Source: a virus. Taken from it: a stretch of 64,000 nt of DNA. The notes beneath the pieces are model-generated. The model did no database searches. It saw nothing but the letters and a program-made list of their open reading frames with translations, and was not told the DNA's origin. Both the position numbers and the translations under genes were made by a program. Shown here in pieces: positions 44,601-59,330 of the stretch (position 1 is its first letter; every line of letters begins with the position of its first letter). Location of the stretch: the UHGV virus genome UHGV-0072281; one strand, 5' to 3'.

Positions 44601-46836
44601 CAAACTCCAGCGTGGTGCTAGTAGACAAATCGTCCTTACGTAGACGCCAAGCTGCTACTGCGTAAGCAGAGTTATTTACCGTAGAGCGGAGAAGATAAAC
44701 GTAATCCTCAACCAACACAACATCATCGGCTTCTGGCCACGGATTCCAGGTTTGTTCCACAGTACCGCTGGGGTTGCCGTTACGGTACACGGGCATCGTA
44801 ACGCGACATACCACCGTGTGTTTAGTGTGATCCATCGAACCATTAAACAACACCAAATAACGGTTATTATCAGAACCCAGACAAATAATCGCTTCCTGAC
44901 CACCGATCAATATAGCTTTCAGGGTCACTCCAGGATATTTACTCATCCCGGCAGGGTGATATTTCACTGAGGTCTGCTGCGGATTTACAAACGCGTTTGA
45001 CGTGTTAATGTCAGCATAGCCGTAATAAATGGCTTCTGTACCCGGTACGCCGTTAGAACCGTTACGGAGCGAATAAACCTTACCCTGCTGATACCCAACA
45101 ACCCCTTTTTGATAAGACTGGTTTTTGGTATAACCCGAATAGTTACCTAGCGCTGGGATAGGTAAGAAGTTCTTGTTACCGAACTTCGCACCACCTACCG
45201 TCCACGCCGGTAAGATGGTATTCAGTTTATCAGAGACTTTCTTAATCTCTTTTGCGAACAGCCACCCTTGACGCGACGTGACAGCTTTATCGTTAGTAGT
45301 GTCAATCGCATCCCAGAGCTGCAAGATACCGTCAACCGATGCACTACCAATTGGAATGTTATCCAAGTCAGCAGTGGTGTGTGTATGCGTCTTCAAACTC
45401 TTGTTTTTCAACACGTTCGTTAACGCTTTCGTCACCGGCTTAGCACTTGGCGTGGTGTTATCCATCTTATCGGTACCGAAATCGGTTTTCGTTAAGGTTA
45501 ACACCATACTGTCGCCTACCTTAACAAACCCTTTACCGTTAACGGTATAGTCATCGTCAACGTACAGGTCCAAGCGGTCTTTTAATTCGGTTACGGCTTT
45601 CTGGGAGATAGCAGTACCTAACGCCGCAGACGTGGAGATATTCGTAATCGAGAACAACCCATAAACTGATTCGGTCGCTGTGGGAATATTCGCGTTTAAC
45701 GTAACCGGGTTAGTCTGTTTTGCGGTACCGTACGGTTTTACAGTGTCTGACGCTTTGAAATACGCGTTTGCTTCGAGCAACGTTACTGACGTCAGGTACA
45801 TGTTCACCATTTCTGGCGTAACCAGATACACGGAGTTATAAACCGGCGCTAATACATCCTGTTCTGACCCCGAGTGAACCCAAAGCGTATTCAGACCCGC
45901 ACTGAATTCAACCGCTAAACCTGATTCGTTGTTGTCCTGGTCTGCTTTAATCACCAACGGTTGTGGCGAGGTAATTAACCACTTATCACCGCGAATACTG
46001 ATGATGTGGCCACCTGACGTTTTAAACGTTAATTCAATACCGTTAGTAGTGCCCCATCGACCGTAAACAGTACCGAGGGCTTCACCCATTAACTGGTCAA
46101 CGTCTGATTGCTCAATACCCGCTGAACCCATCAGCGTAGCCAACTCGTCAATCGTCAACCCAAACGCTTTTGTAGCGTCAACAGCGCGGCCTAATACCGG
46201 GAGAGCAGCAATGTCGTCAGTGGTATAATGATGAGCGTTAGGATTCCGGTGGTGTTGGTATAACTCTTCGTCGAAAACCTTTTTACCGTTCTCGTAAATC
46301 AGGTTAGTAACTTCACTAAACGCAGCATCTAACTCTGTAGAACGCTTAATGATTTTCTTACGAATGTCTTCTAACGCCTTAACAACCTCATCTCTCAGAA
46401 TAGCTTCTTCTAAGTTAGCAGGCGGGTCGATTGGTTGAATAACCGGCGCATACGCCATTAGTTCAGACCAGTCCACGTTACGTGGGTCTTTCAGGTCAGT
46501 ACGAACTAAGAACTTCCCGATTTCAGATTGCGGTACACGATATTGACGTGCTACCCCTAAAATCTCATATTCGATTTCTGTTGCAGTAAGCAACATAAAC
46601 CCGCCGTAAATCTGATCTTGTTCAGCTTCTGCGAGTTCTTTAAAGTAATAGCCTAAATAGTAGTCCAACCCCTCAATCAGAGTACGACGTCCGTTAGGCG
46701 CGGTATCGTCGGCTACTGTGAGTTTTAATCCGATACGATAAAAAGGTCCTTCAGGTGGAATGACCACGTTAAATCGGTTAGGGTACGTTGCTGTGCTTAG
46801 CGTACCGTTAAACTGCGCCGCGTCTTCTCTCGGCAT
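41653..46836 (-). CDS. Giant tail fibre / tail spike-like structural protein
   Basis: 1727 aa; N-terminal block PPEGPFYRIGLKL...GLDYYL homologous to neighbours; AGGAG RBS. Confidence 0.65.
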   Translation of the reverse strand: MPREDAAQFNGTLSTATYPNRFNVVIPPEGPFYRIGLKLTVADDTAPNGRRTLIEGLDYYLGYYFKELAEAEQDQIYGGFMLLTATEIEYEILGVARQYRVPQSEIGKFLVRTDLKDPRNVDWSELMAYAPVIQPIDPPANLEEAILRDEVVKALEDIRKKIIKRSTELDAAFSEVTNLIYENGKKVFDEELYQHHRNPNAHHYTTDDIAALPVLGRAVDATKAFGLTIDELATLMGSAGIEQSDVDQLMGEALGTVYGRWGTTNGIELTFKTSGGHIISIRGDKWLITSPQPLVIKADQDNNESGLAVEFSAGLNTLWVHSGSEQDVLAPVYNSVYLVTPEMVNMYLTSVTLLEANAYFKASDTVKPYGTAKQTNPVTLNANIPTATESVYGLFSITNISTSAALGTAISQKAVTELKDRLDLYVDDDYTVNGKGFVKVGDSMVLTLTKTDFGTDKMDNTTPSAKPVTKALTNVLKNKSLKTHTHTTADLDNIPIGSASVDGILQLWDAIDTTNDKAVTSRQGWLFAKEIKKVSDKLNTILPAWTVGGAKFGNKNFLPIPALGNYSGYTKNQSYQKGVVGYQQGKVYSLRNGSNGVPGTEAIYYGYADINTSNAFVNPQQTSVKYHPAGMSKYPGVTLKAILIGGQEAIICLGSDNNRYLVLFNGSMDHTKHTVVCRVTMPVYRNGNPSGTVEQTWNPWPEADDVVLVEDYVYLLRSTVNNSAYAVAAWRLRKDDLSTSTTLEFERVTLNGEMGQFGDNLCLRIGQKTEESQTGQFFTYLTPEARAKWTIGCNFVHGPECNHACAVRDGVIRVNHMPTVWFAAADSSQINFRQWATSFTIDTSTGKVTLEGRERFPIKADATTLSFADGSTVETSRKWGGGQANNRCFATYAKPNGTGMMLSCWQINDADQMPNVSIKGTQGKEFFDYLRYDNPNNTSGEGTFTWDKGRGSIYTIGLSHPVGIGGSNKVWMSNPRNRYTIEVEVDPNKPYDVPGYSGYGPNNNRREVDPTLYEQLSCMAACMTPEERHGQLNGWYLTKAETFPYRNIYGNFALSSERLTLEEADRQKMIRMIVDGAPSGQANGYANERISAAHQTGNALFALWMLGINTVCEFDLLQVSCMKTLSNGRRILDIYYFMVSPSKENGYLRFNSANFKLVDWFLDKDYGLSYQSLREEAGNKTRRVGQPIFASADGTNFGIWLPYTLTIRNIGDLNALGYAAKYTYDPGSGWSRVPGKSQLRQMAPAHNPESGCYMGAGNWDKMALIFSKADRVFCSGNAYTAAEFVNDTTFSTGGQAVIIAGVETAEGWILYLTEEVKLDFGSSSYTLPTWSVDLSSEFPSNHANQTFYVHAEVSDSTAQYRIGLEQLADTSTRLFVGTVTTDSSRITDISIDKVKRLGRVKELEDHAAIIDQHDVAAAFDRKTGPLLTLVNKPVKAPTAAASKGEGYVDGQKWGSLSGITTRPKLPIQETYSGYKSVARVAYENCADQFWQKAVAANITTAIASENTQAASANMKWIGAYTKPTTGTYAYLALSLRVQVPGNPGTANRTLKLRLAAPTGIVEARYGINQAGGSMAEQKVTLSANQYLEKEHTGFKPAEEVRVHVTFVIPKNEYESYRTKFGAVQLVDVESGTTIKQADIDTPFCVYTDTELSAQSGLVYKAVKGQFDNLPSEPALIVRDGQTGTNPPVISSYADGTLTVYVATAYDGVNPAETRDIDKLQFNLMFTS

Positions 46837-46931
46837 CGTAAAGACTCCTACTTTTTAAATAAAATGGATACCCCTCCCCATTACAGGGAGGGGTTACCTA
46901 CGGACACACAACTGCCCGCAGGCAGCCTGTC

Positions 46932-49900
46932 CTAAGTACGATCCCCTAACTGCTTCCCGTTAAGTTCTCGTTTCAGTACAGAAAGTATCCATTTCCACGC
47001 TTTACTCGTGATATGGTACGGATTGCGTTTCTCCATTAAGAACTGCTTTTCACCGCTACGCAGTTCAAAGCTCTGCGCATTAAGGTAGTCCTGACGATAG
47101 ATTTTCTCATCAAAAACTTCCAATGAACAGGTAAAGTTAAGTTCGTACCCTTCAGGATTATTACCCGGCGGGTCTAAGACAATATAGATGTCCTGGCCTA
47201 CACGTAAATCCGTTGGAGTGATGGTAATCGCTTTACCCACATCGGCGTTAGTCGACAGAGCAAACTCCGCACTGTCCGTAGACGCTAAGAATGGGTCTTT
47301 CCCTGCGTCGCCAATAATCACTTTACCTGGCCAGTTACTTTTTATCGTTCCCGTCACTTTTGCAATTCGATATTGCTGTTTATCAACACCTTGTGCAAAA
47401 CGGAGAATGAGTTTGTGACGATAACGACTTGCAGCAACCTTAGTCGTACTCCACACATTGTTCCAGGAAGTGTGCAGTTCATTGTTCTTCGCCATCAACG
47501 CACCACGAGACAGTTTACGGTCAAAGAACTGCGCAGGTAACTGCCCATCGTGAGAAACCGCAACACTTCCCTGACCAGTTGGCAAGGCAATGCTCTCCGT
47601 GGCACGGTATTTTTGACTAATCTCATAAGTCGCAGGGTCAATCACAGACTGACTATAATCAGCGTCTTTGTTATCAGCCAAATACCCAACGGATGAATCC
47701 AGATACGACTCAAACAACGAACGTAAGTAATGATACTTATCAATGTCGATATTGTTCGTAACCGGATCAATCAGTGCGTGGCTAATCGTTACTCGGCATT
47801 TCGCGCTCAGTTCTTTAAACGATAATCCTATTCCGTCACCGGTGAAATAATCCACTAAGTCGAACGGGAATTGAATTTCCAACTGACGTTGTTTAACTGT
47901 CGTCGTCCCAAACTGCGAGAACGACAACGCTAAACGTAACACACGCGTACTTACGTTATAACGGTAACGAATCATCCCACGAGGTGCATGGTTTGCAGAG
48001 ATTTTATCTCGGGCGGCGCCCCAGCCAATCAAATCGAGAATCGCAGCATTCGTTTCTTCACCGTTGAACAACACATCCTTAAACGTTGCATTCACCGCTG
48101 TTTCCCCAGACTCTTCCATTACCAACGGAATGTCAGTAACGGCAGAATCTGAACGGGAACCAATCCCCAGCTTACACGCTTTGGCAGTTAGGTCAATGCG
48201 CAGATAGCGACGTTTAACGCTACTCCCTTGCGTTGACGAGCATAGAACCAAATCCGGCGCAGCAGCAAGGGCTTGCGTCCCACCAACATCGTCAACATCG
48301 AATGCAAACGAGCCTTCGAAAGTCGGTGCGTTGTTTTCTTTCGGGTTAAACGGTGTAAACCAACAATACGGCGTAGCACCTTCAGGTATCACAACGTATT
48401 GAAGACTGGATTTCACGTTTTGGTTGTGTGCGTAAGTATAAAGACCGCGACTGACAAGATGGAAAACATCACCTGTACCGGCTGTTAACGCTTTCCTAAA
48501 GATACACGCTCTCGGTTCGGCAATAGCACGGTTTAATAACGGCAAACGTGGGTTATCCGTTAGCGTCCAGTCCACAGAACTGAGTCCGTGCGCTTTACGA
48601 GTGTCGATGTGTTCACTAACCTCGGCACTTTTCCCGAAATCGAACGTGGTTTCGAACCCAACTGTTTTATTCGCGTAATTCTCACCAGCAACAATATCAA
48701 CGTAACCGATATAACCACGTTCAGGATCAACTGCGATGCTCTGAATAGGTTCAGCACGCGAATATAGAGAGCCTGTGAGCATGTTAACGTACAGATAGTG
48801 ACGAATCCCTACGTGGGTTGTAACAAACTCCTGGAGAAGCTCTACGCGCGTTTCAGGGCCACTGAAGTAAACAGGGTAATCACCGTCGTAAACTTCAAAT
48901 TGCACAGCTGCTGATTTTGCAGTGTCACTGCATTCTGCTTTAACAGCGATTGTGTAATTTTCAACATCTAACGACGTTGTGTAGTTCATTAACAACGGAG
49001 ATTCACCGGTAGCGGCCACAACACCATTTACATAAATGGTTATCCTTCCACCGCCAGCGGCGTAAACAAACAGCCTATTCTGATAAGCTTTGACCCGTAT
49101 TTTAGCCAACACTGATACAACGGACTGTTCACCCATCTGTGTAGCGCTTTTACCTACCGGAACTGACTGAAACCCCATTGTTGGAGGATCAACAATTCCA
49201 TCCCAACTAATCCCAGTACCTCTACTAACTTTCCCCGTAGGCCAAGTCAGCTCAAGCTGGTTGTTCGGTGAGAACCAGTTAAACATCGGGGTGGTTTGTA
49301 AGTCAATCGCACCAGTAACGACACCGTCGGCCTTTCCTCCATTCAGCAAATAGAAGTATTTCAAATCCTGAACGGAGATTGTCGTACCCTGGCTATTAAA
49401 ACGCCAGTCTGCGCCTTTTACAGCAGCGAAATCAGTTACTGTTCCTTCTTTCGCGTTTGCTATCGCAGCGGCCACCACATCTAAACGTGCTGAAAGCTCT
49501 TTTAAGATGTTCGGTACCACTGCTCGGTTTTCAACTAAACCGTTCTGGTTAGTTGCGTAACGGCCAATACCGTAAATAGACTGCGAGGCTTTATAAATGC
49601 CTAACTCTGACCAGCCGTGATGGTGGCCGACATCTGCTAAACCGCTAACCGATGTATTCAATGCGGTAGACAACGGTTTGTCAAGGTCTGCGGTGTTGTC
49701 CGCTTGCCCTAATCCCAGATCGGCTTTCGTGATTGTCCTGGAACCGTCGTCCATCGCTTTACCGTTAATCATGGTCGTTTTAGTCACGTACCCTGATAAG
49801 TCGGTTGAATACGGCGTTAATGACGCAGGGGTTGCAGCAACCCCAACCGTTTCTGTGCCTTTACCGGTTTTAAGTTTAACGACACCTTTTTCAGTGGTTG

Positions 49901-51116
49901 ACGCTTTCGTCGGGTCGATAGCCCCCACGATAGGATCGGCTCGAGAACCTTTACCAGTGAAACTGATCCCATTACGGCCTTCGATATACACTTTGGAGTC
50001 ATCAGGGTCGCTACCGCCACCAGAACCCGCATCAGGGTCTTGTTGGTATTCCATAAGTGCGGTGGTGGTCAGTAACGGGTTACCGTTCAGGGTGAGTTTG
50101 TTCATCCCTAAAACATCGCCCGTTGACTCGATGCGTAACATGTTTTTACCCGCACGCCAGTTAATGTAACGTCCCGCGCTAGTGCCTTCCAAATGACCTA
50201 CCGCCAATACCACAGAACCGTTGGATTTTAACGTAAAGCCGTCATTCGCAAAAATGATTTCTGACTCACCGTTTTTCGAACGGAATTGTGCGCGGTTTCC
50301 TGACACCGTACAGTTAAACACACCCCGTACTTCCGAAGAAATCCAGTGGGAGATATACGTGTCAATAACCGACTGTGGTAAACGAAACGCTTTCAGCTCA
50401 TCCGTCAACGCTTTCAACTTTAACCCGTACGCCATAAAGGTGTCAGGGGTTTTCAGGTTAACGGGATGTGCATTAATTTGTGCACTTGTGGTTTCGTGTG
50501 GGTTCGTCGCGGCAATATGTGCTGGGTAGTTAAACGCTTCGATTTCTTTACCCAACGCGGTCACTAACGCTTTAACTTCAGCTAATTTATCTTTAATTAG
50601 CTGGTTAGCGTCATCGGTTTTCAGCTCGATATCGTGAATCGCCGACGCTAAGTATTTTTTGTTCAGCAAATCCGCCCAGGACGTTGCCGCAGGCGTAGCT
50701 GGGTATAGCGACGGTCTACCGTCTAACAACAACCAGTCTGCACTGACTGGGTTATTCAAATATTTCACCAACTCGTCGAGCATCTCAACGAACGGGTCGT
50801 AGAACGTACCGCCGAGCATTTGTCCTTCAAAGGTTACGATGCCTTTGATGGATGGGTTGATAAGGTGTACCCCACAATACACGTTGGCTGCTACCGAGTC
50901 ATCCAGTTCCGTCAGCTGATATTGTAGTTCGTAGTCCACCCCACGACTCAGTGGGGTGGTTGAACCCGGTTGTCTGACGACTAAGTCTTCAAAGAACGGG
51001 CGATGGTCTAAAATCACCACCCGGTCGTTGTTGTTTTCTGACCCGATGATACGCTCCTCTAAGAAGTGATTCTCGGTTTTCGTCCCCCGAGGATCGTAAG
51101 GATACGCTTTCATCAA
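46932..51116 (-). CDS. Giant tail fibre / tail spike-like structural protein
   Basis: 1394 aa; N-terminal block DHRPFFEDLVVRQ...GVDYEL homologous to neighbours. Confidence 0.65.
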   Translation of the reverse strand: MMKAYPYDPRGTKTENHFLEERIIGSENNNDRVVILDHRPFFEDLVVRQPGSTTPLSRGVDYELQYQLTELDDSVAANVYCGVHLINPSIKGIVTFEGQMLGGTFYDPFVEMLDELVKYLNNPVSADWLLLDGRPSLYPATPAATSWADLLNKKYLASAIHDIELKTDDANQLIKDKLAEVKALVTALGKEIEAFNYPAHIAATNPHETTSAQINAHPVNLKTPDTFMAYGLKLKALTDELKAFRLPQSVIDTYISHWISSEVRGVFNCTVSGNRAQFRSKNGESEIIFANDGFTLKSNGSVVLAVGHLEGTSAGRYINWRAGKNMLRIESTGDVLGMNKLTLNGNPLLTTTALMEYQQDPDAGSGGGSDPDDSKVYIEGRNGISFTGKGSRADPIVGAIDPTKASTTEKGVVKLKTGKGTETVGVAATPASLTPYSTDLSGYVTKTTMINGKAMDDGSRTITKADLGLGQADNTADLDKPLSTALNTSVSGLADVGHHHGWSELGIYKASQSIYGIGRYATNQNGLVENRAVVPNILKELSARLDVVAAAIANAKEGTVTDFAAVKGADWRFNSQGTTISVQDLKYFYLLNGGKADGVVTGAIDLQTTPMFNWFSPNNQLELTWPTGKVSRGTGISWDGIVDPPTMGFQSVPVGKSATQMGEQSVVSVLAKIRVKAYQNRLFVYAAGGGRITIYVNGVVAATGESPLLMNYTTSLDVENYTIAVKAECSDTAKSAAVQFEVYDGDYPVYFSGPETRVELLQEFVTTHVGIRHYLYVNMLTGSLYSRAEPIQSIAVDPERGYIGYVDIVAGENYANKTVGFETTFDFGKSAEVSEHIDTRKAHGLSSVDWTLTDNPRLPLLNRAIAEPRACIFRKALTAGTGDVFHLVSRGLYTYAHNQNVKSSLQYVVIPEGATPYCWFTPFNPKENNAPTFEGSFAFDVDDVGGTQALAAAPDLVLCSSTQGSSVKRRYLRIDLTAKACKLGIGSRSDSAVTDIPLVMEESGETAVNATFKDVLFNGEETNAAILDLIGWGAARDKISANHAPRGMIRYRYNVSTRVLRLALSFSQFGTTTVKQRQLEIQFPFDLVDYFTGDGIGLSFKELSAKCRVTISHALIDPVTNNIDIDKYHYLRSLFESYLDSSVGYLADNKDADYSQSVIDPATYEISQKYRATESIALPTGQGSVAVSHDGQLPAQFFDRKLSRGALMAKNNELHTSWNNVWSTTKVAASRYRHKLILRFAQGVDKQQYRIAKVTGTIKSNWPGKVIIGDAGKDPFLASTDSAEFALSTNADVGKAITITPTDLRVGQDIYIVLDPPGNNPEGYELNFTCSLEVFDEKIYRQDYLNAQSFELRSGEKQFLMEKRNPYHITSKAWKWILSVLKRELNGKQLGDRT

Positions 51117-51126
51117 AAAATTCTCC

Positions 51127-54100
51127 TTAATCGCGAATGATTACCGCCTGCACTAAATTGTTGGTGTCGATAAACGACATTACGCGCTCCTTGTTAAGAT
51201 AAGGAGGTATCGGTAACGCAGCGTAATCCGCCAGGTTGTTATTAAACTCGGTTGCCACTAGCGCATTAAGCGTTTCAGGGTCTGAGCTTGTCCCGGCCAA
51301 TTCCATAACACGTACACGATTTAACGAGGAATAGTTGCTGATATAATCCAACAGCGTACCGTAGAGTTTATTCCCGGTTATGCTGTCCGCCGTAGAGCGG
51401 ATATTGGCACGCACTTCGTCCTCATAAAGTCCCCCTAATCCGTAGTAAATAGGGGTATACGGATCGTTAACGATAGGCGCGAGGTTGAACCCGGTTAAAC
51501 GGTCGGTCAGCGAGATTTTCTGCGTAGTACCACCTACCGCCGTACAGCTTACGTATTTATCTGCGGCAGATAAATACACCACAATAGTGTAAACAGTACC
51601 TGCTAAGGTCAGCGTTGCGTTAAACGTTAATTCGTTATTCGCATCACGCGTATGGCTAAATGACACATCGGGTTGTAACGTACTCCACGGTGCAGGTGTA
51701 ACACGTTTCGTTGGCGTGAAACCTAACACCACAGATTTCCCGTTACCGAAGTTTAAACCAAACCCGGCGTAACAATATTCACCATTACTGTCAGTTAAAC
51801 GATAGCCGCGAGTGATAAGTAACGACAACCGCATAAACTCGCCATCGGTGTTTTTCCAACAACCTAAAATGGTTTCTAACACCGTGCCGGTTTTTGCGTT
51901 GCTTTCGGTTTCCCAACTGACTCGCATCCCCGCATTGCTAAATAGGGGGAACAGGTTGTGGATAAATCCATGAACGTTATCACTTACCCCTTTCGCGTCA
52001 AACATCCACTTCGCCGTAAGCTGATCGTATTTCACACCGTCGAGCGCTTTATAACCGTCTCCAACCACATAACGCCAGTCTGCTTCACCACGCACAACCG
52101 CTTGGAGTCCAGAAGCCCAGCAGGGCGCACCTACTGTTAAATTGCTTAACCCCAACACCGCGCGCGAGGCATAACGTTGAATGTGTGCGTTATCGTTAGC
52201 GACGTGGTCTTTCAGCTCACGGAAATCGCCTAACCGCGTCACGTTACGCAACTCCACTACGTCCACTTCGGAAAGATCATTAACAACGAGCCTTCCCACA
52301 CGCGTCATGGTATCCGTCTCAGCTTGATTATAGCTGTCGTGAATAATGTACTTCGCTTTGTTATCGACAATGTCAACAAAAATCCCTGCGTAAACTTCCT
52401 TATTCAGATTCGGGAAACGTTCGGTGACGTTAACCGACATCAACGGTACGTCGTACGTTTCACCACCAATGAAATACGTGGAAGCAGGAAGTGTCACCAG
52501 GATATTGTCTTTAACCGTAACGTCAATTAAGTCGTTACCAGACTTACCAAAACGAATAATGTCAATGCGAGCGCCTGAGTCAACACCACCGACAGTGTTC
52601 TCCAAATCTTCAATCTGGGAAGTCTGCGCCATCACCACACTACTATCGAGTGCTAAAGTGTCATCATCCACATCCAGACCGAATTTAATCAGACCCCGTT
52701 TCGTGGTGTCTGCGTTAGCAACACCGAATACGGAAGACGGGTGTTGGTGAACCTTCGGTGAGTATTTGTCCAGCTCGGTCTGCTGTGCAACAGAAATCGG
52801 TAAGTCAACGTCCGGGGTATTCGCAACGTTACCTAAACCAAAGGTAATTTTGTCGATAGTAACCGAACTGGTAAGCTGCATGTCGTTGATGTACGACTTG
52901 GCGGCAACTAACTTACCGGTAAACTCTGCGTCCAGTTTTTCAATTAACGCGGGTGTCGCTGCAAGGTTTTCAGCCGTACCGAATTCGTCCGTTAACTGCC
53001 AGCAGGCTAAGGTAGTAACGTCATTGGCAACCGGAAGGATAAACGTTACGACAAAGGGCGATGCTTTAATCCCGCTGCCAGTAAGTTCTACGGTAGACGT
53101 AGACGCACCGTAGAACAGACCTGTACCGCCTGCGGTATTACCCGGCAAATACGGCCCGACTGTAGTGGGGTCTAAGAGCTTCTTACCACGCCACAGTAAT
53201 CCACGGTCATCAGGATATAGCACAAGCTGGTTATCGCCCGCCTGTAACGTTACCGGGTTGTTACCCACGTTAACGTCAGTAGAACCTTGACCGATGAACT
53301 TAATGGATTTCGGATCAACGACAAACTGGGCACCTAAACGTGTCTCGTCAACAACATCAGGTGCTTTCTTAATGGTAACCGTGTTACCTTTGTTTTGCGA
53401 ACTAATGGTGACAGCATCAGCAACGTTGTTAATCCACGTTTTAAAATGATATTGATTTTCCAACGCTTCTAGCGCAGAATCCATGTTATCAAAATTAATT
53501 CTGGCACTGTAAGTTTTACCGTTTACCGTAACGACAGCATCGAACACGTTCCCCGTGCGCTTCAACTGGAAACGTAATGAGAAATCGCTGTTAGGTATTG
53601 CCGGATCAGGAGCTTGAGAAATATACCTTACCTGCGGAACTGTACCAACAGTATTAAGGCTTAGCGAAACTTCAATAGAGATAGTATCGCCCCAGATTCC
53701 GGCTTTTATCTCGACAAACTTGCCAGCGATTGTGCCCGGGTTCTCGTAAAACCGCATAATCGCGGAACCGACCGCCTCATTACCCGACGCAGTTTTTATA
53801 CCAGTGACAATAAAGTCAATATCTTGCAGGTTAGCGGGTACCGCATTAAAAGAAGCACTAAATCCATTCTTCGTTCCTGTGTAACGAAGCGCGCCGTGAT
53901 ACCTGTGACCACTACTAACATAGTTTTCGCTAAAATAAGGGTTCACGTATTTAGACATCGAAACCGGATCAACTTCTGTCGTGAACGAAGTAAAACCGGG
54001 CAGCGTTCCAATGGTTCCGTCGGCCGTTTTCGTAGTTGACGTGCGCAGTAGTTTCTTTTGCGCAATCAATGTTTCTTGCGTTGGATACTTAGCATTAACA

Positions 54101-55452
54101 TAATCTGTTAACTGCGGCTTCGTTTTTCCGTAAGCTAACGCTGTATCCGTCGCAATACCATTCAACTCTAACGCACGGATCGCCCCCCACGTGTCGCTGT
54201 GCGGGTTGTCCTTACGTGTAACGTGTTCGTGTGCGGGTGCGTTACGATACAACTGCTCAACTAACTGATGGTACTTAACGATTAACTGATAAACGTCATT
54301 ACTTACGTCAGCTTCTGGCGAACCAGGTAACGCAAGGAATTGAGCGTAATCGTTTTCAGCCGCCCACCAGTTTAAGTTAACGTTGGTTTTGTATTTCAGC
54401 CACTTCGCAACGTCTGTTTTGCTGTAACCTGCTGAGAATTCGTCTGGCGGTGTGTCAACGTTAAACGTATAGTCCATGGACTGTTTGTTAGTCGTCACCT
54501 CGATAACGTATACACCGTTACCCGGTTGACGGACAACGCTAAACGTTAACTCGCCTTTTAATTCATCGTCGGTCAAACCGTTGATTAACGTATAATCGTA
54601 ATCGGTTGAACCACTGCCTAACGCAACCGTCAGTCGTAGGCCAATTTTACGTTGTTTTAATTGGAGACGAAGGATACTTGCGCCACCGTTCGCGTAGCAC
54701 AACATCCAATCGATTTGTTCATTCGGGTTAATACTCCCCATATTCGGAAAAATAGCCGGAATACGGTATTTCATCGACAGGGAATATTCATTTAACGTGG
54801 TGGTTTTGTACGTAACGGAGAAACGACGTTTGGCGGTGTTGTAGGTATACCCACCTTTGTTATCGTACGTTGCGTACTGTTCAGACGTGATAACCGTACC
54901 ATTAGCACGATGTTCGATATCTAACGTGTTGCGCGCAATCGGGTCTAACCGATTCACCACGTTGCCTAACGAATCACCTAAGCCTGCAATGGCCTGCATT
55001 AATTCCAGTTCACCTTTCCAGTTTTCCCAGTCGAACTGAATGTCAACCGGTGGAAAGTAAACATCACCAATAACGGTATCCCATTGACACGCAGACGGGT
55101 ATTTATCTTTATTGAGTTCGCGTTCTGCGGTAATCTGTTCTTGGGTCGCTTCACCACAACCTACGGCGTGGTAATCTACCGTGAAATTCGATTTGTATTT
55201 GTCGTTAACAATCCAAATCATCCCGTGCACGAGATAGGCTGTGCGCAACATACCGGTCTCGTACGGGTGTGTAATAACGTAATCGTCGCCTAAGGTCAGT
55301 ATTTTGCCGCCGCTCTTGACCACCAGGGATGTGGTGAAAAAAGGGGCGTGGGCAGGTACCAACATTCGGTACTTCGTACCAATGACGGCGACCGCTTCAC
55401 CGGTTATTTTATTCCCCGGTTCTTTGAAGTGTGGGTCTAGGACGACAGCCAT
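51127..55452 (-). CDS. Giant tail fibre / tail spike-like structural protein
   Basis: 1441 aa; N-terminal block AHAPFFTTSLVVK...GDDYVI homologous to neighbours; first gene of minus-strand operon. Confidence 0.65.
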   Translation of the reverse strand: MAVVLDPHFKEPGNKITGEAVAVIGTKYRMLVPAHAPFFTTSLVVKSGGKILTLGDDYVITHPYETGMLRTAYLVHGMIWIVNDKYKSNFTVDYHAVGCGEATQEQITAERELNKDKYPSACQWDTVIGDVYFPPVDIQFDWENWKGELELMQAIAGLGDSLGNVVNRLDPIARNTLDIEHRANGTVITSEQYATYDNKGGYTYNTAKRRFSVTYKTTTLNEYSLSMKYRIPAIFPNMGSINPNEQIDWMLCYANGGASILRLQLKQRKIGLRLTVALGSGSTDYDYTLINGLTDDELKGELTFSVVRQPGNGVYVIEVTTNKQSMDYTFNVDTPPDEFSAGYSKTDVAKWLKYKTNVNLNWWAAENDYAQFLALPGSPEADVSNDVYQLIVKYHQLVEQLYRNAPAHEHVTRKDNPHSDTWGAIRALELNGIATDTALAYGKTKPQLTDYVNAKYPTQETLIAQKKLLRTSTTKTADGTIGTLPGFTSFTTEVDPVSMSKYVNPYFSENYVSSGHRYHGALRYTGTKNGFSASFNAVPANLQDIDFIVTGIKTASGNEAVGSAIMRFYENPGTIAGKFVEIKAGIWGDTISIEVSLSLNTVGTVPQVRYISQAPDPAIPNSDFSLRFQLKRTGNVFDAVVTVNGKTYSARINFDNMDSALEALENQYHFKTWINNVADAVTISSQNKGNTVTIKKAPDVVDETRLGAQFVVDPKSIKFIGQGSTDVNVGNNPVTLQAGDNQLVLYPDDRGLLWRGKKLLDPTTVGPYLPGNTAGGTGLFYGASTSTVELTGSGIKASPFVVTFILPVANDVTTLACWQLTDEFGTAENLAATPALIEKLDAEFTGKLVAAKSYINDMQLTSSVTIDKITFGLGNVANTPDVDLPISVAQQTELDKYSPKVHQHPSSVFGVANADTTKRGLIKFGLDVDDDTLALDSSVVMAQTSQIEDLENTVGGVDSGARIDIIRFGKSGNDLIDVTVKDNILVTLPASTYFIGGETYDVPLMSVNVTERFPNLNKEVYAGIFVDIVDNKAKYIIHDSYNQAETDTMTRVGRLVVNDLSEVDVVELRNVTRLGDFRELKDHVANDNAHIQRYASRAVLGLSNLTVGAPCWASGLQAVVRGEADWRYVVGDGYKALDGVKYDQLTAKWMFDAKGVSDNVHGFIHNLFPLFSNAGMRVSWETESNAKTGTVLETILGCWKNTDGEFMRLSLLITRGYRLTDSNGEYCYAGFGLNFGNGKSVVLGFTPTKRVTPAPWSTLQPDVSFSHTRDANNELTFNATLTLAGTVYTIVVYLSAADKYVSCTAVGGTTQKISLTDRLTGFNLAPIVNDPYTPIYYGLGGLYEDEVRANIRSTADSITGNKLYGTLLDYISNYSSLNRVRVMELAGTSSDPETLNALVATEFNNNLADYAALPIPPYLNKERVMSFIDTNNLVQAVIIRD

Positions 55453-55519
55453 TATCTACTCCTATAGTCCGTGGGCGTCGAGTTCATACTATGACTTGAA
55501 TCTATTGAGGAAAAGAGCT

Positions 55520-56782
55520 GTGACTACTGCTTATCAAGTACGGCCTGACAGCGCTTTTGGCTTCTCTCGAGAGACCCGTACCTGGGGAGCCATCGACGTC
55601 ACGCAACCCTTAGAAACCTTGTGTTCTGATTACCATATTTTCGAAGTCGGTCTGAGTGCGCTTGGTAAAGACTATACGTTAATTAGCCAATATCACCTCG
55701 CTGACTTACAAAACCGTACCGATACTTTACAAGACTGGCTGAATGAAAAAGCCGGTATCGTTATCTCTGAGTTGAATGACGGTTTACCGACGTTAGAGTT
55801 TGATTGGGCACACTACCAATCGATTAATGCCGATGTTCCGGTAGAAACCTACCTGTGTCCTCCCGGTTATCACTACAGTCAAGATTTCAGTATAGACGAT
55901 GCTGACGACGTTGTGATAGTGTGTGAAGATAAATGGAAAGACAAATACCGTAACGGGGTGTTGTACAACATCAACGGACAGTGGGTACCGCATCAATCCG
56001 ATACTGTTGGTGTACGTTTACCAGGTGCGGGTAAGATAGTACGTCGTGCAGGGACACCGGATATCGGGTGCATGGTCTTTAGTAAATTGGGGAATGTTAA
56101 AACGTACCCCATTGCTAACTTGACCTTAAACAAGCTCGACACCACCCGTGACTATTATTCCACGTTAATGATTTCTTTACCGGAATCTATTACGGGTAAA
56201 ACCGTGGGGTTTGTTATCGGGGGACTGATACACTGGTTGCCTGTTACTGGGTACTTCTCCGACAAAGCCATTATGGTGTCGCTACCGAACTTTGACGTTG
56301 CGCGTACTGTGTTAGAAACGCGTCGTTATTACGACTGGGATAGCATAGGCGTTGGCGATTTGTCATCACCGACCAGTGTGCAGCGTATCCGTAACCCAGA
56401 AACGTTAAAGGCGCTTTTAACCCACGAGTCGTCGTTTATCTTTACGGTGGATAATCCGTACCTGGAAGAAGAAGTTGTGGGGGTTTCTCACAACGCTATC
56501 TGGGGACGTTTATACCTTAAAGATCCTAATGACCCTGACGGTGAGAAACAACTGGGGTATCTGTTAAACCGCTTCGGTAAAACTGTTGCTTATTGGCCGA
56601 CGTGGGAAGAAGGGGAATGGGTATTTAACACCACGGAATTCGACAGTCAAAACTACGTGTTCCGTGAGGCCCGTTGGTATAACCAGAATAAAATTAACGA
56701 TGCACAGGCAATCGTAGGGCCTTTCGGTCCCTGGGAAAAAGTCTATTTGGAAATGCATCGTTTCCGTGCAAGAAAAAAATAA
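55520..56782 (+). CDS. Hypothetical protein
   Basis: GTG 55520 with GAGGA RBS; track ORF begins at 55304 but that would overlap the divergent minus-strand gene by ~150 nt. Confidence 0.5.
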   Translation: MTTAYQVRPDSAFGFSRETRTWGAIDVTQPLETLCSDYHIFEVGLSALGKDYTLISQYHLADLQNRTDTLQDWLNEKAGIVISELNDGLPTLEFDWAHYQSINADVPVETYLCPPGYHYSQDFSIDDADDVVIVCEDKWKDKYRNGVLYNINGQWVPHQSDTVGVRLPGAGKIVRRAGTPDIGCMVFSKLGNVKTYPIANLTLNKLDTTRDYYSTLMISLPESITGKTVGFVIGGLIHWLPVTGYFSDKAIMVSLPNFDVARTVLETRRYYDWDSIGVGDLSSPTSVQRIRNPETLKALLTHESSFIFTVDNPYLEEEVVGVSHNAIWGRLYLKDPNDPDGEKQLGYLLNRFGKTVAYWPTWEEGEWVFNTTEFDSQNYVFREARWYNQNKINDAQAIVGPFGPWEKVYLEMHRFRARKK

Positions 56783-56830
56783 GTAACCTCCTACCCTCTA
56801 AGAGGGTAGGAGTAGCACGTTTTTTTTTTC
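56770..56830. terminator. Bidirectional rho-independent terminator
   Basis: A-run, hairpin cctaccctc-taag-agggtagg, then T10 run. Confidence 0.75.
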
Positions 56831-56832
56831 AC

Positions 56833-57042
56833 TTAGTCTTTTTTGTAGACAATCGCGTTACCGTGCAGTTTGTTGTTACCGGAAATACCGATAACTTTAA
56901 ACGCTTCACCGCCGATCTTTTCAGCTTCGACAGCCAGCTTAGCAGTAACGTCGTCTACGGTATCACCGAAAGCGCTTACGTTACCAATTTTCTTGAACTC
57001 TTCAGGAATGTGTTCAGCAGAAGAGAATTCTTTAATAGCCAT
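56833..57042 (-). CDS. Small protein resembling the DUF1471 (YdgH/BhsA/McbA) domain, without signal peptide
   Basis: 69 aa; C-terminal ISGNNKLHGNAIVYKK resembles the conserved G.NnkL.GTA..YK end of that family (from memory); GGAGAG RBS. Confidence 0.45.
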   Translation of the reverse strand: MAIKEFSSAEHIPEEFKKIGNVSAFGDTVDDVTAKLAVEAEKIGGEAFKVIGISGNNKLHGNAIVYKKD

Positions 57043-57103
57043 AGCTACTCTCCAGTTAAAGAAAGGAAGGACTGTATCGTGTTACAACCAAAGCATATGA
57101 TAG

Positions 57104-57124
57104 CTCCTCCCCGAAGGGAGGAGA
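57104..57124. other. Stem-loop ctcctcccc-gaa-gggaggag
   Basis: Perfect 8-9 bp inverted repeat between two minus-strand genes; T-run geometry not canonical for either strand. Confidence 0.3.
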
Positions 57125-57241
57125 GAGTGCGCGAAAAAAGTGGCCTGCTTAACTAAACGATGAGGTTTAAGAAAAGTGTTGATAAGAAGCTTACCAACGT
57201 CAGGTCACAATATATAATACCAACGTAAGAAAAAGGGGAAA

Positions 57242-58207
57242 TCAGCGTGGGCCTGAAGTTGGGCCATGGACGCCGTCATGGATGTGTACGCTGAAGGTAA
57301 TACCGGAAATAACCGCATCCTTAACCGTAAAGATACCCACGCCTTCGCCCGTACCACCGTATTTGAAGTTCTTAGCAACTTCCAAATTACCGGTGAACAT
57401 CGCTTCTTTACCTTCTTGCTTAAAGTTCGGCGTTTTATACGTTGTTGAACCAGAAGCTTCAGTTAGCCAGGTTTCTGTTTTAAAGGTGACCGATTTCGAC
57501 GCTTCGGTATTCCGAACTTCGCATTTCTCATTAATCGTTTTCGTTTCCAGGTTAATCGAACGTTTTGCGTAAATGAATGCATCTTCTTTATTGATGTTCA
57601 CTTTTGAAAGCATCGCGTTCTCAAAACCTAAATCGTCTTCCACCGAGTTAATGTAATACTTATTCCCTTTATGGTCAACGCACTGCCACGACCCGTTAGC
57701 GTTATCGAATTGGAATAACCACGCCGCTTTCTCCCCATTCACCATACTTGTTCTTAGGGTAACGTGTTTGTCAATCGTTGAGACGTTTAACACATACGCG
57801 TTCGACAAGTCATCCGCCATCTGGTTTTCAGGGTCAGCCGACCACGCGTAAACCGCATCTTCTAATCGCTTAACGTTAGCGAAATTCAGATCAATCCAAA
57901 AATAAATATCCGTTTTCCCCAAACGTAACAAGATAACGTAATCTTCTCGTTTAACGTCAGGGGAATTAATTCGGTTGGAGTTAAACTTCCACCACTTTGC
58001 CGTTATCGTGTTACCCGTCTTAATGGTTAGGTTATCTGTTGCACCAGATGTTTCATGCGTCTTTTCAGTTGCTGAAGAAACAGATTGTACCACGGTAGGG
58101 TTAGCAAAGTTAGTTTCAATTGGTATCACTTTTACCCGATCTGTACCACGGGGTTTGTCTTCCGCGACGATACCAATTGAGAAAAAATCAACGCTGGATT
58201 TCTCCAT
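57242..58207 (-). CDS. Hypothetical protein
   Basis: 321-aa ORF on minus strand. Confidence 0.55.
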   Translation of the reverse strand: MEKSSVDFFSIGIVAEDKPRGTDRVKVIPIETNFANPTVVQSVSSATEKTHETSGATDNLTIKTGNTITAKWWKFNSNRINSPDVKREDYVILLRLGKTDIYFWIDLNFANVKRLEDAVYAWSADPENQMADDLSNAYVLNVSTIDKHVTLRTSMVNGEKAAWLFQFDNANGSWQCVDHKGNKYYINSVEDDLGFENAMLSKVNINKEDAFIYAKRSINLETKTINEKCEVRNTEASKSVTFKTETWLTEASGSTTYKTPNFKQEGKEAMFTGNLEVAKNFKYGGTGEGVGIFTVKDAVISGITFSVHIHDGVHGPTSGPR

Positions 58208-58290: not shown

Positions 58291-58595
58291 GGCACGTTTC
58301 TTTCGAAACGGAGTTACCACGTGATTAAGAGACAGACCAATGTCTACTGAGAAGAAAAGCGGATTGGACGAAGTCATCGAACTGTTCAAACGCTACAACC
58401 CAGCTATTCCTCGGTAATCATAGTATTACTTAAAATTTACAGATTGTCCCTTTATTCTGCTACTCGGGATACCGGTAGGGGGTAGGGGGCAATATGTATA
58501 CGGATATAAATAGCGGAGGTATACGTAGTATACCGACATACTCTTCCCAGAGGAACGTAGTGACTTCCTTATTCCAGTTTAGGAGAATAAACCCC

Positions 58596-59330
58596 ATGAG
58601 AGAATTATTAGACGATATCTTTACCAACACCAGTTTAGAACTTTCTTCTACGCTGGTTAACGAGCTAATAAAACAATACCAACCTGCTAAGTTAATCTCT
58701 GTCTGGATAGTTAAACCCGAAGAATATCCAGACAGTGACATTATCGACTGTATGATTGACGAATACGCTATAGGCAGTTACGCCAACCAGATCTACTTTA
58801 TTCTTAATACCGAAACCAGCATCATGTTAATCTATAAGTTGATCAGTGACGCCGAACTTGAAGTTGTGGCTGACCACATTCGTCTTCTTGCGAATGCGCC
58901 TACTGGTTACAAAGTTGCGCTTATTGGTGACGGTTGGCCTTTGCCACCGCTATTCACTTACTTCCCTCTGTTTAAACATGGGATAGGGTTACTCCGTCAT
59001 GCAGAAAATCTTCCCGATAACGTAGAGTTATCACTGCTTGGGCCCGGCATCGATCTTTATCCATTAAAAGACGAGGGCACGCTATATGGTTTGCGCATCT
59101 ATGTTTCTGTGTTAAAGGGATACCGCGTTATTGAATTGATTGCATCAGACTTAGCAAAACAGATCCCCGAAGCAGAAACGATTTCTAAAGCCACCCACCT
59201 GGTTGAAATTAACCCGGACGATCCGTTATTACGGTATCACAAAGAAATTGACCTTCGTAAAATCGCCACGATAAGAGGATGGGATTGTGCTGAGATTACG
59301 AATAATAACCTGTTACTAGTACGTAAGTAA
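58596..59330 (+). CDS. Hypothetical protein (possible member of tandem paralogue family)
   Basis: ATG 58596 with AGGAG RBS (track begins 58494); C-terminus GW...NNNLLLV loosely matches family motif. Confidence 0.5.
   Translation: MRELLDDIFTNTSLELSSTLVNELIKQYQPAKLISVWIVKPEEYPDSDIIDCMIDEYAIGSYANQIYFILNTETSIMLIYKLISDAELEVVADHIRLLANAPTGYKVALIGDGWPLPPLFTYFPLFKHGIGLLRHAENLPDNVELSLLGPGIDLYPLKDEGTLYGLRIYVSVLKGYRVIELIASDLAKQIPEAETISKATHLVEINPDDPLLRYHKEIDLRKIATIRGWDCAEITNNNLLLVRK

What the first reader, a model, noticed from the sequence alone, without database searches (positions are those of the whole stretch)
56833..57042. Signal-less DUF1471 (BhsA/YdgH-like) domain protein on an isolated minus-strand transcription unit
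Seen in sequence: 69-aa ORF ending ...KVIGISGNNKLHGNAIVYKKD, which resembles the C-terminal signature of enterobacterial DUF1471 stress/biofilm proteins, but with no signal peptide. It is flanked by a bidirectional terminator and a separate hairpin. Inference: a host-derived domain repurposed intracellularly, possibly interfering with host envelope stress signalling.
Basis: partly seen in the sequence, partly recalled or inferred. Interest (0 to 1): 0.45.

Follow-up and report, generated by a model that had tools for sequence, protein, structure and literature searches.

The report
Leaderless DUF1471 gene beside phage tail spike
A giant (jumbo) bacteriophage carries a small, well-conserved copy of a bacterial cell-envelope protein domain (DUF1471) that has lost its export signal and sits right after the tail-spike gene; the domain is already annotated in related phages, and its function is still unknown.

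Summary
Window 56833-57042 (-) is a real 69-aa gene. It matches Pfam PF07338 (DUF1471) above threshold (40.3 vs 27 bits), its model has the DUF1471 fold, and it has neither a signal peptide nor room for one. A two-way terminator lies downstream and a GC hairpin upstream.

It is not new as a gene. The window is an SPN3US/Asesino-like jumbo phage, and this is the orthologue of SPN3US gp172 (PHROG 8068), already labelled "DUF1471" or "BhsA" in GenBank.

New context: the leaderless forms make one phage clade, kept under purifying selection (dN/dS 0.05-0.26) at one locus in five genera. That locus is directly downstream of the central tail-spike gene, among genes whose SPN3US products are all tail proteins. 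PhiKZ-like phages have their PAAR spike-tip gene in that slot.

SPN3US gp172 was found once in purified virions (81% coverage). A later, more sensitive study did not detect it.

Best reading (about 0.4): a tail-spike/baseplate accessory made in the cytoplasm and carried to the cell envelope on the virion.

Ordinary to moderately interesting.

The parts
56833..57042 (-). 69-aa leaderless DUF1471 (YdgH/BhsA/McbA-like) protein; orthologue of SPN3US gp172; PHROG 8068
   Evidence: ORF; PF07338 40.3 bits vs cutoff 27; phrog_8068 E 1e-31; AF2 model pLDDT 86.7 whose top PDB matches are DUF1471 structures; dN/dS 0.05-0.26; same gene order in SPN3US
57048..57053 (-). Shine-Dalgarno-like GGAGAG, 5 nt before the ATG
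   Evidence: Read directly from the sequence; GGAG is conserved at this position in relatives
56788..56812 (.). Two-way intrinsic terminator shared with the convergent gp171-like gene. The hairpin is flanked by T10 (56820-56829) on one side and A7 (56773-56779) on the other
   Evidence: stems differ in sequence but stay paired in 15 of 15 relatives. The weak Rfam PyrG-leader hit (31.6 vs 65 bits) is just this hairpin
57104..57123 (-). GC-rich 8-bp hairpin with a UUCG loop, upstream of the gene. A T-run follows it in most relatives (terminator-like) but not in this window or in L011
57094..57097 (-). TATG motif, with its G 52 nt before the start codon. A TATG lies 41-69 nt before the start codon in all 19 relatives, and in 14 of them TTAC-N15/16 precedes it. 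It resembles the phiKZ late/middle promoter core; the promoter role is inferred
   Evidence: phiKZ promoter rules from PMC4666361. Not statistically enriched in the window
57133..57228 (-). Conserved upstream element: TTAC-N16-GTGAC (57228-57204), then about 66 nt of foldable RNA ending in GCCAC-T6 (57144-57133). It is either a candidate short transcript or a first, weak terminator of the spike gene
   Evidence: no consensus structure or covariation could be shown
57242..58207 (-). Central tail spike (cell-puncturing device), immediately upstream on the same strand; homologue of SPN3US gp173
   Evidence: phrog_3216; phiKZ gp164 (PDB 6ORJ/9XPH) E 2e-22 over aa 4-259; Mu gp45 apex over aa 265-320 with the HIHxG motif; SPN3US gp173 labelled 'Tail'
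55520..56782 (+). Convergent downstream neighbour; homologue of SPN3US gp171 (essential tail protein) and of phiKZ gp130 (baseplate outer-region connector)
   Evidence: phrog_3337; PDB 9XQD phiKZ gp130 E 4e-9; PMC5105663; PMC13250141

Best explanation
Shown: this is a genuine, conserved phage gene. It is the orthologue of SPN3US gp172, a 7-kDa DUF1471 domain that corresponds to the mature part of enterobacterial periplasmic proteins such as BhsA, YbiJ and YahO, without their Sec leader.

Inferred from the tree and gene order: an ancestor of the SPN3US-like jumbo phages (Seoulvirus, Erskinevirus, Machinavirus, Wellingtonvirus, Derbicusvirus) acquired it once from an enterobacterial host. It has been kept under purifying selection at one fixed place ever since, directly downstream of the central tail-spike gene and convergent with a baseplate gene. 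PhiKZ-like Pseudomonas phages have their PAAR spike-tip gene in that slot.

Inferred mechanism: the protein is made in the cytoplasm from its own promoter-like signal, as a monocistronic unit closed by a two-way terminator. It works with the tail spike or baseplate as a small, low-copy or loosely bound virion accessory. On this reading the leader was lost because the virion assembles in the cytoplasm. The domain then reaches the compartment where DUF1471 domains normally act (outer membrane and periplasm) on the tail, not through Sec. What it binds there is unknown.
For: Identity and fold: PF07338 above cutoff. The AF2 model has pLDDT 86.7, and its top solved matches are YdgH, SrfN and YahO.

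Leaderless.

Single phage clade: the leaderless set is monophyletic in 152 of 200 bootstraps. The only leaderless sequences among hits from 1.84 billion representatives are phage-like.

Maintained: dN/dS 0.05-0.26, and GC 42.4% against 44.0% for the window.

Fixed locus: spike, then DUF1471, then the convergent gp171-like gene and the giant fibre gene, in 5 genera and 2 metagenome contigs.

Neighbours are tail parts: spike = phiKZ gp164 plus a Mu gp45-type apex; gp171-like = phiKZ gp130; SPN3US gp167-171 and gp173 are all 'Tail' in the wild-type versus tailless comparison; gp171 is an essential tail protein.

Slot analogy: phiKZ gene 163.1 lies 9 nt downstream of spike gene 164 on the same strand. 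It is a PAAR protein and is the monomeric spike tip in the cryo-EM atlas (PMC13250141). PAAR homologues are absent from SPN3US-like phages and from this window.

Virion detection: SPN3US gp172 was found in CsCl-purified virions with 4 unique peptides and 81% coverage. Its spectra per kDa were 0.86, against 0.74 for gp171 and 0.23 for spike gp173.

Cellular DUF1471 proteins act in the envelope, and YdgH without its leader is inactive.
Against: - gp172 is absent from the later, more sensitive SPN3US dataset, which used double-CsCl-purified virions and found 102 proteins. The smallest protein found there was 10.5 kDa, so this could be either a technical loss or a true absence.
- gp172 was also missing from 47(am1) mutant particles.
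- No head or tail assignment exists for it.
- The gene is not co-transcribed with the spike. A 199-bp gap with terminator-like hairpins separates them.
- The TTAC-N15/16-TATG motif in relatives precedes only this gene, not the neighbouring tail genes. That fits separate regulation.
- This clade's spike already has its own HxH apex, so no tip protein is needed.
- Gene position is only circumstantial evidence in jumbo phages.
Confidence: 0.4

Rival explanations
1. A soluble, well-expressed non-virion protein that helps tail, spike or baseplate assembly (chaperone-like) or has some other cytoplasmic phage function. On this reading its single detection in virions was carry-over from the lysate.
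For: It has its own promoter-like motif, a good ribosome-binding site and strong terminators, which suggests independent and possibly high expression. It was detected only in step-gradient virions and not in double-gradient virions analysed on a more sensitive instrument. Small genes next to fibre and spike genes are often assembly factors (general knowledge, not tested here).
Against: 81% coverage, with spectra per kDa above the spike itself, is high for a contaminant. No chaperone-like feature or precedent exists for a DUF1471 domain.
Confidence: 0.25
2. One reading: a host-derived domain kept in the cytoplasm to interfere with host envelope-stress or biofilm signalling, for example as a decoy for a partner of cellular DUF1471 proteins.
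For: Leaderless, so cytoplasmic when made. Host-derived family linked to stress responses. Separate transcription unit with a promoter-like motif that differs from the structural neighbours. Family-wide conserved residues are retained.
Against: No cytoplasmic partner of any DUF1471 protein is known, and high-confidence interactors have not been identified. Cellular members act in the periplasm, and leaderless YdgH is inactive. The fixed position in the tail-spike block across 5 genera, and the one virion detection, are left unexplained. The resemblance to RcsF is a generic property of the fold and lacks RcsF's cysteines.
Confidence: 0.2
3. The protein is released at lysis and acts from outside on neighbouring cells' surfaces, for example by changing aggregation or biofilm or by binding surface polysaccharide, to favour the next round of adsorption.
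For: Cellular relatives affect surface properties and biofilm, and SrfN binds sulfated polysaccharides. A leaderless protein can only leave the cell at lysis or on the virion.
Against: Purely speculative: no data, and it does not explain the fixed spike-adjacent locus.
Confidence: 0.07
4. A decaying remnant of a captured host gene, or a chance ORF.
For: It is short, and several records annotate it only as 'hypothetical'.
Against: dN/dS 0.05-0.26 with saturated synonymous change. Full-length conservation in 60 phage records. Confident fold. Peptides covering 81% of the SPN3US orthologue were observed.
Confidence: 0.01

Closest known systems
SPN3US gp172 (SPN3US_0172 / YP_009153466, 'DUF1471 domain-containing protein') and its orthologues in phiEaH2, Asesino, SPAsTU, Huxley, Wellington and CR5 (PHROG 8068)
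   Same: Same length, same leaderless DUF1471 domain, same locus between the spike and the gp171-like gene. Identity is 43% to SPN3US, 71-78% to Asesino, SPAsTU and Huxley, and 91% to a metagenome contig.
   Different: Sequence divergence only. In this window (and L011) the second promoter-like motif has lost its TTAC and the upstream GC hairpin has lost its T-run.
Cellular single-domain DUF1471 proteins of Enterobacterales (BhsA/YcfR, YbiJ, YahO, McbA, YhcN, SrfN)
   Same: Same Pfam domain and fold. The conserved T, A, G, GNN, G-A and Y positions are retained. The size equals that of the mature cellular protein.
   Different: No Sec signal peptide. It scores below every NCBIfam equivalog cutoff (BhsA 47.4 vs 90), so it is not a BhsA orthologue. 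It is encoded in a phage tail module and forms a separate clade.
phiKZ gp163.1 (PAAR spike-tip protein); by the phiKZ authors' analogy, T4 gp5.4
   Same: Same genomic slot: a small gene immediately downstream of, and co-oriented with, the central spike gene. Small size (88 vs 69 aa). gp163.1 is a single-copy virion protein, and gp172 appears to be low-copy.
   Different: Unrelated sequence and fold: PAAR PF05488 against DUF1471, with no BLASTP alignment. gp163.1 follows its spike gene after 9 nt, whereas here a 199-bp regulatory gap intervenes. This clade's spike carries its own Mu gp45-like HxH apex.
RcsF (outer-membrane lipoprotein sensor of the Rcs envelope-stress pathway)
   Same: Similar fold (Foldseek TM 0.83 to 2Y1B). 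This is a known general property of DUF1471 domains.
   Different: About 10% identity, no RcsF cysteines, no lipobox or leader. There is no evidence of homology or of any role in Rcs signalling.

Membership tests
DUF1471 / YdgH_BhsA-like (Pfam PF07338) | Profile HMM match above Pfam's gathering score | tested here: met
   40.3 bits vs 27, E 3.4e-10, covering profile positions 2-55 of 55
DUF1471 / YdgH_BhsA-like (Pfam PF07338) | Mixed alpha+beta fold of the solved DUF1471 domains (YahO, SrfN, YdgH/SssB) | tested here: met
   AF2 model pLDDT 86.7 with strand-strand-helix-strand-strand order. Top Foldseek PDB matches are 2M2J, 4EVU, 2MA8, 2JNA and 2NOC, with TM 0.64-0.74
DUF1471 / YdgH_BhsA-like (Pfam PF07338) | N-terminal Sec signal sequence and periplasmic location (true of most cellular members) | tested here: not met
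   No hydrophobic leader, no upstream coding room, and Met1 aligns near the cleavage site. Actual localisation is not testable with these tools
DUF1471 / YdgH_BhsA-like (Pfam PF07338) | Restricted to Enterobacteriaceae/Enterobacterales | tested here: met
   All 60 phage records infect Salmonella, Erwinia, Escherichia, Cronobacter or Proteus. Family restriction is from PMC4092069
BhsA (NCBIfam NF047859, equivalog), as annotated in some GenBank phage records | Score at or above the curated equivalog cutoff (90 bits) | tested here: not met
   47.4 bits. YbiJ 36.1 vs 110, YahO 24.8 vs 90, McbA 24.2 vs 110, YhcN 21.4 vs 125
SPN3US gp172 orthologous group (PHROG 8068) | Full-length profile match and the same gene order (spike, small gene, convergent gp171-like gene, giant fibre gene) | tested here: met
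   phrog_8068 E 1.1e-31 over residues 1-69 of 69. Same gene order in SPN3US, Asesino, SPAsTU, CR5, Phobos, Derbicus, Wellington, SNUABM_29, Huxley, L011 and L012
SPN3US gp172 orthologous group (PHROG 8068) | Virion-associated protein | tested here: inconclusive
   Literature only. Detected in 2017 (81% coverage); absent from the 2023 dataset and from 47(am1) particles. Nothing is known for this phage itself
PAAR spike-tip proteins (Pfam PF05488; phiKZ gp163.1, T4 gp5.4) | PAAR-motif domain | tested here: not met
   The only Pfam hit for the 69-aa protein is PF07338. No BLASTP alignment to phiKZ gp163.1. No PAAR-like ORF in the window
PAAR spike-tip proteins (Pfam PF05488; phiKZ gp163.1, T4 gp5.4) | Small gene directly downstream of, and co-oriented with, the central spike gene | tested here: met
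   Window: spike 57242-58207 (-), then 56833-57042 (-). phiKZ: gene 164, then gene 163.1. This is positional analogy only
PAAR spike-tip proteins (Pfam PF05488; phiKZ gp163.1, T4 gp5.4) | Physically caps the spike beta-helix | not testable with these tools
   Needs cryo-EM or multimer modelling. The spike here already has an HxH apex

The most novel reading that the evidence does not exclude
The leaderless DUF1471 domain rides on the cell-puncturing spike or baseplate and is delivered into the outer membrane or periplasm at infection. That would make it a virion-borne 'periplasmic effector': a captured host envelope domain that took over the genomic slot of the PAAR tip gene after the spike gained its own iron-type apex. 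It would reach its native compartment without Sec and act there by binding an envelope component or modulating an envelope response during penetration. Separately, the conserved 65-75-nt element with a phiKZ-type promoter motif just upstream could be a previously undescribed small RNA of this phage clade.
Probability: 0.12. Interest if true: 0.65.

Novelty: new member of a known kind. Interest (0 to 1): 0.3.

Why it matters
DUF1471 is one of the most widespread unexplained protein families of enterobacteria. It is linked to stress tolerance, biofilm, virulence and beta-lactam susceptibility, yet no molecular partner is known. A phage lineage has kept a minimal, leaderless copy for a long time, next to its cell-puncturing spike. 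That gives a simple natural handle on what the domain binds. If it is on the tail, its ligand is probably an envelope component that could be found by pull-down. If it is cytoplasmic, a new partner must exist.

The finding also shows how the spike-tip region of nucleus-forming jumbo phages was remodelled when the lineage moved to enterobacterial hosts: a separate PAAR gene in phiKZ-like phages, against a fused iron-type apex plus a DUF1471 gene here.

As a gene call, however, it is already in the databases, so the immediate novelty is small.

Tried and rejected
1. Sigma-70 promoter scan: 3 sites found against 5.1 expected. The only strong site is on the wrong strand. Rejected; these phages use their own RNA polymerases.

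2. General promoter consensus. None of these motifs is enriched in the window, so I do not claim a window-wide promoter consensus. The case rests only on conserved position and spacing across genomes.
- TTAC-N14-19-TATG: 16 found vs 16.0 expected.
- TTAC-N11-16-TATWRTG: 2 vs 1.26.
- TATGC in intergenic DNA: 6 vs 4.8.

3. Upstream 65-75-nt element as a structured RNA.
- No tRNA and no Rfam family.
- RNAalifold gave zero consensus pairs over 9 sequences and different structures per subgroup.
- Individual folds have z-scores of -1.6 to -3.7.
- My by-eye compensatory stems were not confirmed, so this is left unresolved.

4. Rfam PyrG leader hit (31.6 vs 65 bits): it is just the terminator hairpin.

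5. RcsF mimicry: the high TM-score is a generic fold property already described in the literature.

6. PAAR equivalence: rejected by sequence and fold and by the spike's own apex.

7. Defence or anti-defence: no PADLOC hit.

8. Other copies in the window: none.

9. Literature on phage BhsA/DUF1471 genes: nothing beyond database labels. The SPN3US infection-proteome paper was not available. No virion proteome exists for other members of the clade.

10. The word-indexed homologue search found only 4 close relatives. The exhaustive search was needed to reach cellular homologues.

Full report

Yes. Window 56833-57042 (-) is a 69-aa ATG-initiated ORF ending ...KVIGISGNNKLHGNAIVYKKD. A GGAGAG ribosome-binding site lies 5 nt upstream of the start.

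It matches Pfam PF07338 (YdgH/BhsA/McbA-like, formerly DUF1471) at 40.3 bits against a gathering score of 27 (E 3.4e-10), covering essentially the whole profile.

An AlphaFold2 model built on 28 sequences is confident (mean pLDDT 86.7) and has the strand-strand-helix-strand-strand order. Its best matches among solved structures are all DUF1471 domains: YdgH/SssB domains I and III (2M2J, 4EVU), SrfN (2MA8, 2JNA) and YahO (2NOC). By sequence the closest solved protein is mature YahO (2MA4).

The absence of a signal peptide is also real.
- The ORF cannot be extended. An in-frame stop lies 13 codons upstream with no alternative start.
- Met1 aligns within a few residues of the AxA cleavage site of cellular homologues.
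- NCBIfam's BhsA model aligns only from its position 30.
- The N-terminal hydropathy maximum is 0.40, against at least 2.06 for leader-bearing cellular proteins.

**2. What genome is this, and is the gene known?**

The region is about 75-77% identical in DNA to Erwinia phages Asesino and phiEaH2 and to Salmonella phages SPAsTU and STsAS. These are SPN3US-like jumbo phages of 224-251 kb.

A tblastn search finds the protein in 60 phage records, all from this group and all with hosts in Enterobacterales. The family is PHROG 8068, function unknown.

RefSeq already calls the SPN3US copy a 'DUF1471 domain-containing protein'. Several GenBank records call it 'BhsA'. That label is too specific, because the protein scores 47.4 bits against the BhsA equivalog cutoff of 90 and fails every other paralogue model as well.

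So the gene call itself is not new. I found no paper that discusses these phage genes.

**3. Evolution**

An exhaustive search of 1.84 billion representative proteins returned 16 hits. The four leaderless hits (68-78 aa) are phage-type, and the other twelve are longer sequences (71-103 aa) that extend N-terminally beyond the domain and in nearly every case carry a hydrophobic leader.

In a neighbour-joining tree (65 columns), the leaderless sequences form one clade with 152 of 200 bootstrap replicates, nested among cellular sequences. The alignment is short, so this support is only moderate.

dN/dS against relatives is 0.05-0.26, with synonymous sites near saturation. GC content (42.4%) matches the window (44.0%).

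Together with the reported restriction of DUF1471 to Enterobacteriaceae (PMC4092069), this indicates a single, old capture of the mature domain from a host, followed by vertical inheritance. The domain has also duplicated within phages. Wellington and pEa_SNUABM_11 carry a second leaderless copy, fused to an acidic disordered tail of about 120 aa, right next to the first copy.

**4. Genomic context**

The gene order is identical in five genera and two metagenome contigs: a 308-321-aa protein, then the DUF1471 gene, then a convergent gene of about 420 aa, then a giant fibre-type gene.

- **Upstream gene (57242-58207, -): the central tail spike.** Residues 4-259 match phiKZ gp164 (PDB 6ORJ/9XPH, E 2e-22). 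Residues 265-320 match the needle apex of phage Mu gp45, the 'baseplate puncturing device', including an HIHxG...TxGP motif.
- **Convergent gene (55520-56782, +).** It matches phiKZ gp130 (9XQD), which connects the outer baseplate lobes and sits above the fibre attachment sites (PMC13250141).
- **SPN3US equivalents.** gp167-171 and gp173 are all depleted in tailless particles and labelled Tail, and gp171 is an essential tail protein.

**5. The spike-tip slot**

In phiKZ, spike gene 164 is followed 9 nt downstream on the same strand by gene 163.1 (88 aa). The 2026 cryo-EM atlas identifies gp163.1 as the monomeric spike tip.

gp163.1 is a PAAR-motif protein (PF05488, 28.7 vs 27 bits). It has no detectable similarity to the DUF1471 protein.

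PAAR homologues of gp163.1 occur in 78 phage records, 73 of them Pseudomonas phages, and in no SPN3US-like phage. The window has no PAAR-like ORF.

So the same slot downstream of the spike gene holds a PAAR tip gene in phiKZ-like phages. In SPN3US-like phages it holds a DUF1471 gene, and their spike has its own Mu-type apex. This is positional analogy only, not homology. Because the spike is already tipped, the DUF1471 protein is not simply a replacement cone.

**6. Direct evidence on the orthologue**

Ali et al. [quoted passage not shown] It had 4 unique peptides, 6 spectra and 81% coverage. Its spectra per kDa were 0.86, comparable to gp171 (35/47.6 = 0.74) and higher than spike gp173 (8/34.6 = 0.23). 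It was missing from 47(am1) particles, and the authors themselves flagged its status as unresolved.

In 2023 the same group analysed double-gradient virions in triplicate on a more sensitive instrument and listed 102 phage proteins. gp172 is not among them. The smallest protein found was 10.5 kDa, so a 7-kDa protein may have been lost technically, or it may not be a stable virion component.

No head or tail assignment exists for gp172. I found no proteome for other members of the clade.

**7. Transcription signals**

- **Downstream.** An A-run, a 10-12-bp GC hairpin and a U-run lie between the two convergent genes in 15 of 15 genomes. The stem sequences differ but remain paired. This is a conserved two-way intrinsic terminator.
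- **Upstream.** The 199-bp gap contains TTAC-N16-GTGAC directly after the spike gene, then about 66 nt of foldable sequence ending in a GCCAC-T6 box that occurs only once in the window. After that come the GC hairpin at 57104-57123 and a TATG 52 nt before the start codon.
- **In relatives.** 16 of 19 genomes share the first motif with its exact 16-nt spacing despite unrelated spacer sequences. 14 of 19 have a second TTAC-N15/16-TATG, whose TATG lies 42-69 nt before the start codon.
- **Comparison with phiKZ.** In phiKZ, late promoters are TATG with the G as +1, and middle promoters have AAanTTACc near -24 (PMC4666361). These motifs therefore look like phage-polymerase promoters.
- **Specificity.** In six annotated loci the motif precedes only the DUF1471 gene, not the spike, gp171-like or fibre genes.
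- **Limits.** None of these short motifs is statistically enriched in the window, so the promoter assignment is an inference from conservation. This window and its closest relative L011 have lost the second TTAC and the T-run after the GC hairpin.

The separate regulation mildly weakens the case for a purely structural role.

**8. Interpretation**

What is shown: a conserved, selected, leaderless DUF1471 domain fixed next to the tail spike.

What is inferred: its role.
- **Tail-spike/baseplate accessory carried on the virion (about 0.4).** This explains the loss of the leader (virions assemble in the cytoplasm), the fixed locus, the one good virion detection and the envelope biology of the domain.
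- **Soluble non-virion helper, such as an assembly factor (about 0.25).** This fits the failure to re-detect the protein and its independent expression signals.
Cellular DUF1471 proteins act in the periplasm, leaderless YdgH is inactive, and no partners are known. The resemblance to RcsF is generic to the fold.
- **An extracellular role after lysis (about 0.07).** This is pure speculation.
- **A pseudogene or chance ORF.** Excluded.

**9. Novelty and verdict**

This is a new member of a known, already-annotated phage protein family of unknown function.

The added value here is context: the single leaderless phage clade, the over-specific 'BhsA' annotations, the spike-adjacent slot shared with the phiKZ PAAR gene, and the conserved regulatory architecture.

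Interest is modest (0.3). It would rise if the protein proved to be a virion-delivered envelope-binding domain, or if the upstream element proved to be a small RNA.

Noticed in passing
window 57133-57228 (-): Conserved element between the spike gene and the DUF1471 gene: TTAC-N16-GTGAC (a phiKZ-type promoter-like motif with exact spacing in 16 of 19 relatives), then 55-66 nt of foldable RNA with conserved TCGYTTG and GCCAC-T6 blocks. It is either a candidate small non-coding transcript or the first of two tandem terminators. There is no Rfam or tRNA hit, and no consensus structure or covariation could be demonstrated.
   Followed up: partly
window 57242-58207 (-); phiKZ locus L023:4372-5529: The central spike has a phiKZ gp164-like body plus a C-terminal Mu gp45-type apex (HIHDG...TSGP). 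phiKZ gp164 lacks this apex and uses a separate PAAR protein, gp163.1, encoded just downstream. PAAR genes (Pseudomonas phiKZ-like phages) and DUF1471 genes (enterobacterial SPN3US-like phages) occupy the same slot and never occur in the same genomes.
   Followed up: yes
window 58494-59330 (+): Orphan 278-aa ORF facing away from the spike gene. It has no Pfam, PHROG or PADLOC hit and no tblastn match in 50,697 phage records. The closest relative L011 has only a 383-bp gap here, and SPN3US and Asesino have a 105-aa gene. It looks like a variable slot or an insertion.
   Followed up: partly
L008:3787-4347 (Erwinia phage Wellington gp189); L019:1005-1571 (pEa_SNUABM_11): A second leaderless DUF1471 domain (PF07338, 29.7 bits) fused to an acidic, low-complexity tail of about 120 aa, encoded immediately after the small DUF1471 gene. 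This is a duplication of the domain within phages.
   Followed up: partly
GenBank records MH221129 (SPAsTU), KX397373 (Stratton), KX397369 (Kwan), MH426724 (Wellington): [quoted passage not shown] The protein fails the NCBIfam BhsA equivalog cutoff (47.4 vs 90 bits) and lacks the leader, so the label is over-specific.
   Followed up: yes
L012 (Logan SRR34965338 contig); protein P0003: P0003 is named 'TPA: DUF1471 domain-containing protein [Salmonella enterica]', but it sits on a 23-kb contig with the jumbo-phage tail gene order. It is phage DNA attributed to the host.
   Followed up: partly
window 41653-55452 (-): Three consecutive giant paralogous genes (1727, 1394 and 1441 aa) match the layout of SPN3US gp168-170 (the baseplate/fibre 'paralog family C', related to phiKZ gp131). 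A 401-aa gp167-like gene precedes them.
   Followed up: no
window 55304-56782 (+): The mechanical ORF of 492 aa over-extends into the start of the fibre gene. The real gp171-like start is the ATG at 55520 (420 aa, as in L011 and SPN3US). The PHROG alignment begins at residue 77 of the long ORF.
   Followed up: yes
L016:193-447, L017:192-446, L018:181-447 (Machinavirus pEa_SNUABM_6, _10 and _43); L008:3115-3273 (Wellington gp191): Some genera have an extra small ORF (52-88 aa) between the spike gene and the conserved upstream element. I did not examine it.
   Followed up: no
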